Below are positions 12,001 to 64,000 of a stretch of DNA of 64,000 nt, one piece after another. The stretch covers positions 1,550,001-1,614,000 of the forward strand of contig NW_025964235.1 in assembly GCF_023055435.1 (NCBI RefSeq), in the 5' to 3' direction. How positions within the stretch are numbered: the stretch's first letter is position 1; each line of letters opens with the position of its first letter. Made by a program: the position numbers. Source of the DNA: Haliotis rufescens. Its lineage: Eukaryota.

Positions 12001-15000
12001 ATCATGTGAGCACCTTGATTAAAAACATAAGATTTGGAAAATATCTGCTGACGAGTTGGCAGTGCACATGCTTTGCAATCCAGCAATCAACCGAAATCTG
12101 CACGACAGTTTACGAACCAGATTTTGATTTCAGTGCGCGATTTTGATTGGACTATGTATAGACTCGTTAGCCCAGCCGAAATGTAACTCCATAATACCAG
12201 CCTAGTTCGGCAAGGGTGGAAACTGGACTTTTAAAGTCAGTTAACTCTCTTGCCTCGGGAAGATGGGCAGAGACTGATGATTGTTCCCAATGTATCACAC
12301 CCATTGAATCATATTAATTCCACTGAAACATATTGCTACTTAGATGCATGTGCTGTTTCTAGGTGCATCACAACATCAATTATAAAACACATTTTGACGA
12401 CCTGGGACTGTCAGTTAGACACTATACCCATCTGGAAATTTGAAAACTGGTTTCAACACGATGGGAATGCCTTGACTAGCCATGTAAGCTGCTATTCCAA
12501 TCAGGAAAGCATAAATCATAATATTGGCAGAACTAATGGGGCTGAAATGCCTAAGTGGAGCCTTGAATCTTTACTTCATTATTTTGAATGTCGACTGCCG
12601 ATGTATGGAAGCTAATGCAAAAGCAGTTATTTCAGTTTCAAAGTCTAAAAGATTATACAACTGATTATGTAGGTGTAACAAAAAAATTAAGATTTACTGG
12701 CCTTTGGCTTCACTTCCTCTTTATCATCCATTTTATGTGGTCTAATTTTAATTGCCGTCCATCTAAATATGAAATTTAGAGCAAACTTTTATCCACAATC
12801 AATGAAGAAATCAATCATTCAGCAGGTGAAAAGGAGGATATCTGAATACGGATTGAACAATGAAATCTTATGACGACCAACATGGCCGGAAACCATGCCG
12901 CTCGAAGAGGATCATGGGAACCACTTTCCTATGCAGTCTACACCTTTTACAGATTTTGACCTATTTCTATACCCCTCTACACTATTTTACAAGCATATTC
13001 ATGAAACATATTGCATTAGACCGCTTTCTTGTTAAGGATGGATTTCAAAGGCATTTACAGGTAGCAAAATCTTCAACCAAATAGAAAAACGTAGATTACT
13101 GGGGCGCGGACGACTACCAACGCCTAGACCTGACCTACTTTTACATTTTCAACCAAACAACCGGAAATTTAAAAAAGTGAACGCAGAACATTTAACAACA
13201 AGGAAAATCTGTTCTGAACAGCATGTTGCAGATACCATTGATCCAGGCATTCCGAGCATTCCATCATCTGTTCTCTGTCTCTTTGAAAGGTGACCGTCGT
13301 ACGACATCTTGGAAAATGGATTGTAGGTGGCGCTTTCGAAGAATGGGGAGGTAAGCTAAATAGTCCATCAAATTATACCACTAGAAAATATTACCTCGCA
13401 CGAAGAGACGGAACATGTATCGTAACGCTAAACAAGTGTACATGTTTTTCGTATATTTCACACTTTCCTTCTATGAACAATAAAGCTGAATTAAGTATTT
13501 TGTTTGTTTTCATCCGAACCTTGTATTTATTATTGTCACCCCCAGCTATATACATTGCGTGTTAGTACAGGGGGACTAACTATAATTATGAAAATGAGTA
13601 TATATACATCATACGTACGGAAAAAATAATCATTGTTTATATAATGGAGATATACACTGGATAATTAAAGCCTATTAACTTCACGTATGTAATATGTATA
13701 GGAACTAACTTTATATCGCATATATTTTTGCCACCGGATTGCAGAAAAAACGGCAAACACAATATGTTTTTCAGGTGCAAGATCACACCGCCATTTGGTC
13801 ATCTACAGACGTGGATATACACTTTCCACTTTTAAACACTGAATTTCCTTTGGTTAACACCCTATGTTTCCACAGAGCAAGGTTAAAATATGTCAAATCG
13901 TGAAAAGTGGATCTCCAATAAATGTTGTTGTTCTTAAACTAAACATGGAAATCCAATCCTTCAAGTTTGCTATTGACAACACTGGATGCAAGAACATCAT
14001 CAATATGTAGCAGAGTCCATCAGTTTCCGAACAGACAAGGAGAATGTTTGATGTTATGAATTAAATGAAAAAAAGGACAGTGCACCGAAGGGAGATAACT
14101 GCAATAACTTGTATCAGGCCGGTCGTGCAAGTAGGAAGCTGGGTGCATTCAGAGACATATCGTCTGGTCAGGAGCTAGATCTACGCCACAGTCCGCCACA
14201 GTCTGCCAAGTCCACTATGTCGCGCGTTACACAGGACAGCTACGGTCAGACGAGGGACGGAAGCGAGGTGACCAGGTAGGTCTGTGGTAAAGTCAGGTCA
14301 GCTTCAGGTCAAGGCATGTCACTAGACTTGCTACACGTCCCGTTTACATACTGTCGTTAAAGAGAGACAAGGCTCTAGTTGGTTGGTTTGTTAAATTGTC
14401 TTACGCCGCACTCAGCAATAATCCAGCTATTTGACGGCGGTCTGTAAATAATCGAGTCTGGTCCAGACAATCCAGTTATTGATATCATGAGCATCGATCC
14501 ACGCAACTGGGATCTATGACATGTTTCAACCAAGTCAGCGAGCCTGACCACCCGATCCCGTTACTCGCCTCTTACGACAAGCATAGTCCTTTTACGGCAA
14601 CTAGGCACTAGTGTCCAGTCTAGAATGAGTTTCATGTGTACAGACATTGTCACTGTGTAATTACTGAACAGTCGGGGAAAGGGAAGTATACGCTTGGACA
14701 GCCACCTTTGACTCTGCTCAATACGGTGTACTGTGAAACTGCGACCCCTGGAACGTCATGTGCACGTGACAACATGCTCAATACGGTGTACTGTGAAACT
14801 GCGACCCTTGGAACGCCATGTGCACGTGACAACATGCTCAATACGGTGTACTGTGAAACTGCGACCCCTGGAACGCCATGTGCACGTGACAACATGCTCA
14901 ATACGGTGTACTGTGAAACTGCGACCCTTGGAACGCCATGTGCACGTGACAACATGCTCAATACGGTGTACTGTGAAACTGCGACCCCTGGAACGCCATG

Positions 15001-63000: not shown

Positions 63001-64000
63001 GCAATCGCCTTGAAGCCCAGCATCACCCGGACAGTGTGAATCAGGTGAGTCAACGCAATCGCCTTGAAGCCCAGCATCACCCGGACAGTGTGAATCAGGT
63101 GAGTCAACGCCATATCCTGAAATGTAACACAGACTTGAAGCATTTTGTAGCACAGTTGATGGAAGCACCTGAAACAGACATAAAATACTCACAACACACC
63201 TTTTTGGGGCATAAATACTATTTTGCTATCTCGACAACTACGCTACAAAGCGGTATTGTACGTGACCCACGTGACCCATGTGTACCCATATGGCGGAGTC
63301 CTGGCAGGGAAGATGTACATATTCTTTAAGATGTTTATTCAGGTGAGGAAGTGATAAAATCAAGGGAGGTCACCCAAACGAGCAGCTTCATTTCATCATT
63401 TATCCTCGTGCCAAATTTGCCAATGTCGAGAGACTTTATTGCAAGAGACATTGTTTCAGCCCAGTTTCCCCAGTACGATCCTCCGACCCGGCGAGACCTA
63501 CAGACAGACAACCGTCTACAGATTCAGTGTAGACACCCAGTAGACAAGCAGACACTGTCTACAAATTCAGCGTAGACAGGCAGTAGACTGGCAAACACAG
63601 TCTACAGATTCCATATAGAGGTCCAAAAGACTGTCCTCCCTCGCCATGTTGTCTGCGGCTTCGTCCATGGTAGAGTCACTCCGAGGGGCCGGATGAGGAC
63701 CACTCCTTTCCAGTAAATATCTATGTAGAGCAAATATATTATTCCTCGGTCATATAAAGTAAAGCTGCTCTCAGTTTAAATCATCATGCGTTGTATTTCA
63801 TGGGCGACGCTAAAGAACTCATTGCTGTTTATGTGTTTACCTATAGTGATAAGGAATTAAATGTGCTACTTAGAAGATAAATACTATGTGTGTGTCTATT
63901 TCCGGGATTTTATCGAGTATTTGCATCTTGAAAATTCATCTCGAGACCCGAAAGCGTTAGCTTGTGGGGCTCGAATGAAAATTTCCAAGATGCAAATACT

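What the first reader, a model, noticed from the sequence alone, without database searches (positions are those of the whole stretch)
14217..63543. Four-gene mutarotase cluster with intact catalytic residues but a rebuilt sugar pocket: candidate new substrate specificities
Seen: four intact GALM-fold genes in two subtypes. All keep the equivalents of Arg82, His107, His176 and Glu307 (human GALM numbering, established). All replace the conserved G(F/Y)DHN Asp243 with Thr: GFTCNY in A1/A2 (codons 21400, 34654) and GYTVSY in B1/B2 (50146, 62281). The QFYTGN motif becomes MFYTGH (A), MFYTSY (B1) or LFYTSY (B2). Subtype A also has Asn81 to Asp (GRVADRI, 16629). These residues bind galactose hydroxyls in characterised mutarotases. 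Inference: this is a diversified family acting on other sugars. Losing an acidic pocket residue would suit uronic acids, deoxy or anhydro sugars or L-sugars, for example algal cell-wall breakdown products if the host is a grazing mollusc.
[Added by the scan's program, not by the reader: the finding's places include an assembly gap (unread letters, written N; its length is only estimated) at 39125 to 39265, 56068 to 56856. Whether the letters on both sides are continuous or in frame is not known: test that first.]
Basis: partly seen in the sequence, partly recalled or inferred. Interest (0 to 1): 0.8.

Follow-up and report, generated by a model that had tools for sequence, protein, structure and literature searches.

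The report
Abalone mutarotase paralogues with altered sugar pocket
Red abalone carries four intact extra copies of the sugar-anomer-converting enzyme galactose mutarotase that keep the catalytic residues but have replaced two or three sugar-gripping residues, so they probably prefer sugars other than galactose, though which ones is untested.

Summary
The window is abalone DNA: exon translations are identical to Haliotis rufescens 'galactose mutarotase-like' proteins. It holds four intact + strand aldose 1-epimerase genes: A1, A2 (8 exons, 349 aa), B1 (7 exons, 344 aa) and B2 (7 exons, 348 aa). All introns are GT-AG and there are no inner stops. Both N gaps lie in first introns and hide no coding sequence.

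All four keep the equivalents of human Arg82, His107, His176 and Glu307. All replace Asp243 with Thr and Gln279 with Met or Leu. Subtype A also has Asn81 to Asp.

Thr at the Asp243 column is rare: 7 of 306 aligned homologues (5 Haliotis, 2 unnamed) and 0 of the 150 best cluster representatives.

H. rufescens also has a canonical copy (GFDHNF, QFYTGF), apparently on another scaffold, which groups with other gastropod GALMs. A and B are old paralogues. A is sister to a Gigantopelta protein that has Val at this site.

dN/dS is 0.34 for A1/A2 and 0.25 for B1/B2. The A1 model matches human GALM at TM 0.94.

Best reading: active cytosolic mutarotases with changed sugar preference. The substrate is unknown, and the algal-sugar idea is untested. 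The genes are already annotated; the pocket change appears undescribed.

The parts
14217..22839 (+). Gene A1, aldose 1-epimerase paralogue, 349 aa, 8 exons: 14217-14275, 15805-15935, 16579-16742, 18078-18287, 19712-19799, 21305-21449, 21881-22049, 22756-22839 (with stop)
   Evidence: GT-AG at all introns and no inner stops. 8 of 8 exon translations are exact substrings of P0124 'galactose mutarotase-like [Haliotis rufescens]'. Pfam PF01263 exon by exon.
28591..36536 (+). Gene A2, 349 aa, 8 exons: 28591-28649, 29710-29840, 30392-30555, 32081-32290, 34055-34142, 34559-34703, 34871-35039, 36453-36536
   Evidence: GT-AG, no inner stops, same exon lengths as A1. It has 13 amino-acid differences from A1 in 345 whole codons; dS 0.057, dN 0.019.
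38733..52956 (+). Gene B1, 344 aa, 7 exons (A-type exons 3 and 4 are one exon here): 38733-38791, 40884-41011, 43236-43603, 44129-44210, 50051-50195, 50754-50922, 52873-52956
   Evidence: 6 of 7 exon translations are exact in P0004 'galactose mutarotase-like isoform X2 [Haliotis rufescens]'. The last exon differs by one residue (Ser for Thr)..
55761..63543 (+). Gene B2, 348 aa, 7 exons: 55761-55819, 60246-60376, 61008-61378, 61872-61953, 62186-62330, 62546-62720, 63460-63543
   Evidence: GT-AG, no inner stops. tblastn pieces are 84-98% identical to P0006 (H. cracherodii). Against B1: dS 0.235, dN 0.060.
21400..21402 (+). A1 Thr codon ACC at the human Asp243 position. The same codon is in A2 at 34654-34656. 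B1 has ACT at 50146-50148 and B2 has ACT at 62281-62283.
21939..21941 (+). A1 Met codon at the human Gln279 position. A2 has Met at 34929-34931, B1 has Met at 50812-50814, B2 has Leu (TTA) at 62604-62606.
16629..16631 (+). A1 Asp codon GAC at the human Asn81 position. A2 has the same at 30442-30444. B1 (43286-43288) and B2 (61061-61063) keep Asn.
22017..22019 (+). A1 Glu at the catalytic-base position (human Glu307). A2 35007-35009, B1 50890-50892, B2 62688-62690. The His176 equivalents are at 18261, 32264, 43577 and 61352.
39125..39265 (.). Assembly gap inside B1 intron 1
   Evidence: Exon 1 ends at 38791 and exon 2 starts at 40884. TG-rich flanks.
56068..56856 (.). Assembly gap inside B2 intron 1
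   Evidence: Exon 1 ends at 55819 and exon 2 starts at 60246. TG-rich flank.
28090..28170 (+). Relic of a B-type exon 2, about 420 nt upstream of the A2 start codon
   Evidence: tblastn: P0004 residues 20-48, 83% identity. No Pfam hit on its ORF 28069-28203.

Best explanation
The window holds a tandem array of four functional, intracellular aldose 1-epimerase (mutarotase) paralogues of red abalone. They come in two old subtypes (A1/A2 and B1/B2) and exist in addition to a canonical GALM elsewhere in the genome.

Shown: the genes are intact. The fold and the four residues at the anomeric end of the pocket are kept (the Glu base, the His acid, and the second His and Arg). Two or three of the residues that hold the rest of the sugar are replaced: Asp243 to Thr, Gln279 to Met or Leu, and in subtype A Asn81 to Asp plus a 3-residue loop insertion before His107. 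The copies evolve under purifying selection.

Inferred: they still open and re-close the sugar ring by the usual acid-base mechanism. Because the distal hydrogen-bonding residues are exchanged for a shorter hydroxyl and a hydrophobic side chain, they prefer a sugar or sugars other than the galactose/glucose of the canonical enzyme. A and B probably differ from each other. Which sugar is not known. Diet-derived algal sugars are a reasonable guess but no more.
For: - Intact models with GT-AG at all 26 introns. Exon translations are identical to RefSeq-named Haliotis rufescens proteins P0124 and P0004.
- PF01263 is matched across the whole length, exon by exon.
- P0004 against human GALM 1snz: E 3.2e-100, with residue-by-residue equivalences.
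- The A1 protein model (P0124, 64-row alignment) has pLDDT 95.8 and pTM 0.93. Its best PDB match is human GALM, TM 0.94/0.96, rmsd 1.4 A.
- Column counts in 306 homologues: Asp243 column D 278, T 7, N 4, E 3, V 2, G 1, gap 11; Gln279 column Q 276; His107 and His176 columns H 306 of 306; Glu307 column E 293.
- The 150 best representatives of 25,400 profile hits have D 135 and T 0 at the Asp243 column.
- Only 14 of 103 columns that are at least 85% conserved in 297 other homologues are changed in A1, B1 or B2. Three of the seven sugar-surrounding residues are among them.
- A canonical copy, P0235, exists in the same species and sits inside the gastropod GALM clade (support 94/89). A1 pairs with Gigantopelta P0064 (100/99) and the B proteins form their own clade (100/100).
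- dN/dS is 0.34 (A1/A2) and 0.25 (B1/B2). Thr is conserved in the B proteins of H. rubra and H. cracherodii.
- Precedent that this fold can specialise on another sugar: the sulfoquinovose mutarotase (PMC5902678 passages).
Against: - No activity, binding or expression data exist here.
- The enrichment of changes among pocket residues is weak statistically: hypergeometric P(at least 3 of 7) = 0.051, and the test is post hoc.
- PDB holds L. lactis D243N and D243A mutants with galactose bound (1ns8, 1nsm), so loss of this Asp does not by itself stop galactose binding.
- Mutarotases are generally broad in specificity (PMC5902678 discussion), so ordinary glucose/galactose activity remains possible.
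- I had no model coordinates and no sugar ligand tool, so the pocket geometry was not examined.
- The A1/A2 dN/dS rests on only 28 differences.
Confidence: 0.55

Rival explanations
1. They are ordinary galactose/glucose mutarotases. The Asp243 and Gln279 positions are tolerant, and the four copies serve dosage or tissue-specific expression rather than a new substrate.
For: - The catalytic residues and the fold are fully kept.
- About 9% of homologues lack Asp at this column: 28 of 306 including gaps and 15 of 150 representatives.
- L. lactis D243N and D243A still crystallise with galactose.
- Drosophila has five mutarotase genes whose two canonical copies differ mainly in expression (PMC11836677 passages).
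Against: - The species keeps a separate canonical copy with all seven residues.
- Two or three of the family's best-conserved sugar-contact positions (97%, 93% and 93% consensus) are changed together and then held fixed across Haliotis species and between paralogues.
Confidence: 0.28
2. They are pseudoenzymes or sugar-binding proteins without mutarotase activity, like the Drosophila 'Galm-like' genes or the oyster paralogues that lack the catalytic Glu.
For: - FlyBase curators class paralogues that lose active-site or substrate-binding residues as pseudoenzymes (PMC11836677 passage).
- Oyster-type paralogues in my alignment have Ile at the Glu307 column (10 of 306).
Against: - Here Glu307, His176, His107 and Arg82 are all kept in all four copies and in the H. 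rubra, H. cracherodii and Gigantopelta relatives.
- dN/dS is well below 1.
Confidence: 0.1
3. They are decaying or unexpressed duplicates, or an assembly artefact that inflates the copy number.
For: - There are two assembly gaps and very repeat-rich introns.
- A B-type exon-2 relic at 28090-28170 shows that partial copies do exist.
Against: - All four frames are intact with consensus splice sites.
- The copies differ from one another (dS 0.057 and 0.235), so they are not a collapsed or duplicated assembly of one gene.
- Matching proteins are named in three Haliotis species.
Confidence: 0.04

Closest known systems
Human galactose mutarotase GALM (PDB 1SNZ/1SO0), EC 5.1.3.3
   Same: Same fold and length. 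P0004 aligns end to end at E 3.2e-100. The A1 model superposes at TM 0.94, rmsd 1.4 A, 45% identity. The Arg82, His107, His176 and Glu307 equivalents are kept.
   Different: Asp243 is Thr and Gln279 is Met or Leu. In subtype A, Asn81 is Asp and there is a 3-residue insertion in the loop before His107.
Canonical Haliotis GALM (P0235 H. rufescens 'isoform X4', P0242 H. cracherodii)
   Same: Same species and the same family; 56-59% identical to A1 and B1.
   Different: It keeps GFDHNF, QFYTGF and Asn-Arg. It groups with other gastropod GALMs (94/89). Its longest contig is listed as 67.9 Mb against 3.19 Mb for the cluster proteins, which suggests a different scaffold.
Gigantopelta aegis paralogues P0064 (GFVCYY, MFYTGY, Asp-Arg) and P0011 (GFNCNY, QLYTAY)
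   Same: P0064 is sister to A1 (100/99). It shares Asn81 to Asp, Gln279 to Met and the loop insertion. Both Gigantopelta proteins lack Asp243.
   Different: They have Val or Asn instead of Thr at the Asp243 position. P0011 keeps Gln279.
Lactococcus lactis GalM D243N and D243A mutants (PDB 1NS8, 1NSM)
   Same: The same position is altered in an otherwise intact enzyme, and the mutants were crystallised with galactose.
   Different: These are laboratory mutants of a bacterial enzyme. Their reduced activity is my recollection of Thoden et al. 2003, which I could not open.
Drosophila Galm/Galml gene family
   Same: Several mutarotase paralogues in one animal genome, some in tandem, with one or two canonical copies (PMC11836677 passages).
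   Different: The fly 'like' copies are predicted to be inactive. The abalone copies keep every catalytic residue.
Sulfoquinovose mutarotase (HsSQM / YihR)
   Same: A specialised mutarotase of the same structural class, with conserved His, His and Glu (PMC5902678 passages).
   Different: It is bacterial, distantly related and encoded in an operon. It is only a precedent for new specificity in this fold, not a relative of the abalone genes.

Membership tests
Aldose 1-epimerase family (Pfam PF01263, GalM fold) | Match to the PF01263 profile over its whole length | tested here: met
   Exon-by-exon hits are co-linear over profile positions 2-299. The single large B exons give E 7.7e-40 and 1e-37.
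Aldose 1-epimerase family (Pfam PF01263, GalM fold) | GalM beta-sandwich fold | tested here: met
   A1 protein model: pLDDT 95.8. Best PDB match 1snz, TM 0.94/0.96. Only A1 was modelled.
Aldose 1-epimerase family (Pfam PF01263, GalM fold) | Catalytic base Glu (human 307) and catalytic acid His (human 176) | tested here: met
   Present in all four genes.
Aldose 1-epimerase family (Pfam PF01263, GalM fold) | His107 and Arg82 equivalents | tested here: met
   Present in all four genes. These columns are H in 306 of 306 and R in 304 of 306 homologues.
Canonical galactose mutarotase (Leloir-pathway GALM) | Asp243 equivalent in the G(F/Y)D motif | tested here: not met
   Thr in all four genes. D in 278 of 306 homologues.
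Canonical galactose mutarotase (Leloir-pathway GALM) | Gln279 equivalent in the QFYT motif | tested here: not met
   Met in A1, A2 and B1; Leu in B2. Q in 276 of 306 homologues.
Canonical galactose mutarotase (Leloir-pathway GALM) | Asn81 equivalent | tested here: inconclusive
   Kept in B1 and B2, Asp in A1 and A2.
Canonical galactose mutarotase (Leloir-pathway GALM) | Orthology with other gastropod GALMs | tested here: not met
   The gastropod canonical clade (94/89) holds P0235 and P0242 but not A1 or the B proteins. The base of the mollusc clade is unresolved.
Canonical galactose mutarotase (Leloir-pathway GALM) | Mutarotase activity on D-galactose and D-glucose | not testable with these tools
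   Needs recombinant protein and polarimetry or NMR exchange spectroscopy.

The most novel reading that the evidence does not exclude
Subtypes A and B are dedicated mutarotases for different non-canonical diet sugars released from seaweed polysaccharides inside digestive-gland cells, such as 6-deoxy, O-methyl, anhydro or acidic hexoses. That would make them the first animal GalM-fold enzymes with a new substrate class. They may also sit at the ancestral GALM locus beside an hnRNP L-like gene, with the canonical copy being the one that moved.
Probability: 0.15. Interest if true: 0.6.

Novelty: new variant of a known kind. Interest (0 to 1): 0.36.

Why it matters
Mutarotases are usually treated as one housekeeping step of galactose use. 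An animal lineage here keeps a canonical copy and also maintains, under selection, a second set whose sugar-contact residues are exchanged while the catalytic residues are kept. This is a ready-made natural experiment on how specificity is set in the GalM fold. If the substrates prove to be seaweed sugars, it would add an intracellular step to the picture of how abalone, a farmed and threatened grazer, uses algal polysaccharides. If kinetics prove ordinary, it shows that Asp243 and Gln279 are less essential than their conservation suggests.

Tried and rejected
The members and accessions of the 90% clusters, including the named A2 and B2 proteins of H. rufescens, stayed unseen.
- The primary structural papers on GalM could not be opened by DOI or by a recalled PMC id. 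Three full-text searches for the residue names found only secondary citations.
- Two searches found no paper on an abalone or gastropod mutarotase in the held library: Haliotis/abalone with mutarotase/aldose 1-epimerase, and digestive gland/hepatopancreas/gastropod/macroalgae with the enzyme names.
- The quick tree placed the B clade away from A. I rejected that placement because the tree with A1, both Gigantopelta proteins and the four B proteins held together had a log-likelihood 7.19 higher, p-AU 0.70. The careful tree leaves the base unresolved. A single origin of the Asp-less paralogues is therefore neither shown nor rejected.
- A first tabulation of the 150 representatives by pairwise alignment mis-registered the motif: it gave D 110 and T 2. 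It was replaced by a multiple alignment.
- ARAGORN found no tRNA. Pfam found nothing in four ORFs of B1 intron 4 (44395-45128) that had looked transposon-like.
- Pocket modelling with a sugar was not possible: no coordinates are returned and no sugar ligand is offered.
- Not run: a second structure job for a B protein, complex prediction and the protein-atlas search.
The genome collection holds only bacteria and archaea, so no other mollusc genome could be scanned.
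Full report
**What is there**

The window contains two N runs, 39125-39265 and 56068-56856. Stop-to-stop ORFs holding these motifs hit Pfam PF01263 (Aldose_epim). The hits are co-linear over profile positions 2-299 in each of four gene copies.

One exon (43235-43603) is 100% identical to P0004, 'galactose mutarotase-like isoform X2 [Haliotis rufescens]'. An A-type exon is 100% identical to P0124, 'galactose mutarotase-like [Haliotis rufescens]'. The window is therefore red abalone DNA or very close to it. It is not human. The genes are already named in public annotation.

**Gene models**

I ran tblastn with P0004, P0006, P0064, P0011 and P0124 against the window and inspected the splice sites. 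This gave the models checked:

| Gene | Exons | Length | Match to named protein |
|---|---|---|---|
| A1 | 8 | 349 aa | 8 of 8 exon translations exact in P0124 |
| A2 | 8 | 349 aa | same exon lengths as A1 |
| B1 | 7 | 344 aa | 6 of 7 exact in P0004; last exon differs by one residue |
| B2 | 7 | 348 aa | tblastn pieces 84-98% identical to P0006 (H. cracherodii) |

All 26 introns are GT-AG, no exon has an inner stop, and each total length is a multiple of three. Subtype B lacks the intron that splits A-type exons 3 and 4.

Where a full-length protein was needed I used the database proteins that the exons match.

**The gaps**

Gap 39125-39265 lies in B1 intron 1 (38792-40883). Gap 56068-56856 lies in B2 intron 1 (55820-60245). 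Both are bordered by TG-rich simple sequence. No codon is missing from either gene.

Each exon 1 is of the right subtype. B1 exon 1 is 100% identical to P0004 residues 1-20. B2 exon 1 is 95% identical to P0006 residues 1-20, against 70% to P0004. True physical continuity across the gaps cannot be proved from the window.

**Residue equivalences**

I used the HMMER alignment of P0004 to human GALM chain 1snz_A (E 3.2e-100). After allowing for the two-residue offset of the chain, the equivalences are:

| B1 residue | Human GALM residue |
|---|---|
| N80 | N81 |
| R81 | R82 |
| H106 | H107 |
| H177 | H176 |
| T245 | D243 |
| M281 | Q279 |
| E307 | E307 |

A passage in PMC11441068 cites the human structure paper. 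It lists exactly these seven residues as surrounding the sugar, with Glu-307 as base and His-176 as acid. A passage in PMC5622589 lists Arg71, His96, His170, Asp243 and Glu304 as the sugar anchors in the L. lactis enzyme.

All four window genes keep the Arg, both His and the Glu. All have Thr for Asp243 (ACC in A, ACT in B). A1, A2 and B1 have Met for Gln279, and B2 has Leu. A1 and A2 also have Asp for Asn81. Subtype A and its Gigantopelta relative also carry a 3-residue insertion in the loop before His107. So subtype A moves an acidic residue rather than losing one.

**How unusual is this?**

I aligned the 306 proteins of 290-460 aa out of the 329 held after the three homologue searches. The rest were left out for length; two of them were my own ORF translations. 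Column counts:

| Column | Counts among 306 |
|---|---|
| Asp243 | D 278, gap 11, T 7, N 4, E 3, V 2, G 1 |
| Gln279 | Q 276 |
| Asn81 | N 282 |
| His107 | H 306 |
| His176 | H 306 |
| Glu307 | E 293, I 10 |

The seven Thr rows are five Haliotis proteins and two unnamed ones (P0012, P0018).

A profile of six Asp-less mollusc paralogues was searched against 1.84 billion cluster representatives and gave 25,400 hits at E <= 0.001. Among the best 150, the Asp243 column is D 135, N 7, V 2, H 2, G 2, C 1, A 1 and T 0.

Of 103 columns that are at least 85% conserved in the 297 other homologues, only 14 are changed in A1, B1 or B2. Asn81, Asp243 and Gln279 are among them. The chance of hitting at least 3 of the 7 pocket columns is 0.051, and this test is post hoc. 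It is suggestive, not decisive.

**A canonical copy exists**

A search with the Patella protein P0134 returned P0235, 'galactose mutarotase-like isoform X4 [Haliotis rufescens]', 342 aa. Its motifs are GFDHNF, QFYTGF and Asn-Arg. Its longest contig is listed as 67.9 Mb, against 3.19 Mb for P0004 and P0124. This suggests, but does not prove, a different scaffold. H. cracherodii has a similar protein, P0242.

**Phylogeny**

I chose 49 of the 329 proteins: named animals plus the two unnamed Thr-bearing proteins. In the careful tree:

- Mollusc proteins form one clade (100/99).
- The two canonical Haliotis proteins sit in a gastropod clade (94/89).
- A1 pairs with Gigantopelta P0064 (100/99).
- The four B proteins form a clade (100/100).
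- The base of the mollusc clade is unresolved.

Holding A1, both Gigantopelta paralogues and the B proteins together gave a better likelihood than the quick free tree (+7.19, p-AU 0.70). A single origin of the Asp-less paralogues is therefore possible but not shown. Subtype A predates the split of Haliotis from Gigantopelta.

Asp (GAY) to Thr (ACN) needs two base changes. Asn (AAY), as in Gigantopelta P0011, is a possible one-step intermediate. This is inference.

**Selection and age**

| Pair | dS | dN | Ratio | Notes |
|---|---|---|---|---|
| A1 / A2 | 0.057 | 0.019 | 0.34 | 13 amino-acid differences in 345 whole codons |
| B1 / B2 | 0.235 | 0.060 | 0.25 | |
| A1 / B1 | saturated | 0.325 | - | 59% identical |

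Ten of the 13 A1/A2 differences fall in exons 3 and 6. Three of them are the residues just before the GFT motif (NPELGR against NPKVDR). Introns 4 and 5 of A1 and A2 are 89-96% identical over long stretches, and the other introns are largely replaced by minisatellites.

**Fold**

The A1 protein (P0124, with a 64-row alignment) was modelled at mean pLDDT 95.8 and pTM 0.93. Its best PDB match is apo human GALM 1snz, at TM 0.94/0.96, rmsd 1.4 A and 45% identity. After that come a Streptomyces mutarotase, the C. elegans homologue and the L. lactis enzyme with its D243N and D243A mutants complexed with galactose. No coordinates are returned, so I could not inspect the pocket.

**Interpretation**

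Shown:
- Four intact paralogues.
- Catalytic end of the pocket kept.
- Distal sugar contacts exchanged.
- A canonical copy retained elsewhere.
- Purifying selection.

Inferred:
- The proteins are active mutarotases working by the usual Glu-base and His-acid ring opening.
- Their sugar preference differs from the canonical enzyme.
- A and B differ from each other.

The N-termini start directly with the conserved fold and are hydrophilic. I read this as no secretion signal, so any diet-derived substrate would be met inside cells.

I recall, but could not re-read, that the L. lactis D243 mutants have reduced activity, and that Asp243 sits opposite the catalytic Glu, where glucose-configured sugars bind unproductively.

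**Rivals**

- Ordinary specificity with expression differences, as for the two canonical Drosophila Galm genes.
- Pseudoenzymes, as the Drosophila Galm-like genes are predicted to be (PMC11836677 passages).
- Dying duplicates.

The last two fit poorly with the conserved catalytic residues and dN/dS below 1.

**Novelty**

The genes are annotated, and multi-copy mutarotase families are known in animals. I found no paper on abalone or gastropod mutarotases in the held library. None of my residue searches found a description of Thr at this site. Subscription papers and supplements were not searchable. I rate the finding as a new variant of a known kind, of moderate interest.

Noticed in passing
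window 1773-2750 and 7118-7291, minus strand: The upstream neighbour is an hnRNP L-like RNA-binding gene. Its exons hit RRM_5 (E 2e-14 and 5.7e-11) and RRM_8. The best PDB hits are hnRNP L, E 1.2e-10, against PTBP2 at 0.0053. From memory only, human GALM lies next to HNRNPLL. If that is right, this Asp-less cluster may occupy the ancestral GALM locus.
   Followed up: partly
window 50884-52369 (B1 intron 6) and 62683-63110 (B2 intron 6): These are 54-nt minisatellites (27.5 and 7.9 copies) that begin inside the exon carrying the catalytic Glu. They repeat its last codons together with the GT donor. In B2 the reading frame stays open through the array (ORF 62439-63326), so each copy offers an in-frame alternative donor.
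   Followed up: partly
window 28090-28170, + strand: A relic of a B-type exon 2 (83% identical to P0004 residues 20-48) lies about 420 nt upstream of the A2 start codon. This hints at an older B-A arrangement or a partial duplication.
   Followed up: partly
window 16579-16742 / 30392-30555 and 21305-21449 / 34559-34703: Ten of the 13 A1/A2 amino-acid differences fall in exons 3 and 6, next to the His107 loop and just before the GFT motif. Exons 4, 5 and 7 differ by 0-1 nucleotide. This could be local diversification or patchy gene conversion.
   Followed up: no
window 18898-18969, 32723-32794, 43027-43098, minus strand: Three weak tRNA-like Rfam hits (30-32.5 bits) lie in introns of A1, A2 and B1. 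ARAGORN calls none of them. They are probably tRNA-derived SINE heads.
   Followed up: partly
window 14715-59324, introns and spacers: Introns and spacers are packed with long minisatellites, for example 23202-25348 (53 nt x 40.5), 45063-47615 (52 nt x 49) and 53372-54583 (18 nt x 66).
   Followed up: no
proteins P0140, P0141, P0144-P0149, P0126, P0138 (oysters and relatives): A bivalve paralogue group has Ile at the catalytic Glu307 column, Glu at Asn81 and no G-x-D motif (10 of 306 rows). These are likely non-catalytic relatives.
   Followed up: no
window 52873-52956 against P0004: The last exon of B1 ends ...FSVDSQ, whereas the named protein P0004 ends ...FSVDTQ. This could be an allelic difference, or the cluster representative may not be this exact gene product.
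   Followed up: no
proteins P0021, P0137 (Pecten, Argopecten) and P0167, P0250 (Biomphalaria, Bulinus): Other mollusc lineages also hold extra paralogues with Asn (GFNLSF) or Glu (GFENYF, GYENYF) at the Asp243 column, beside canonical copies. Change at this site may therefore be recurrent in molluscs.
   Followed up: partly
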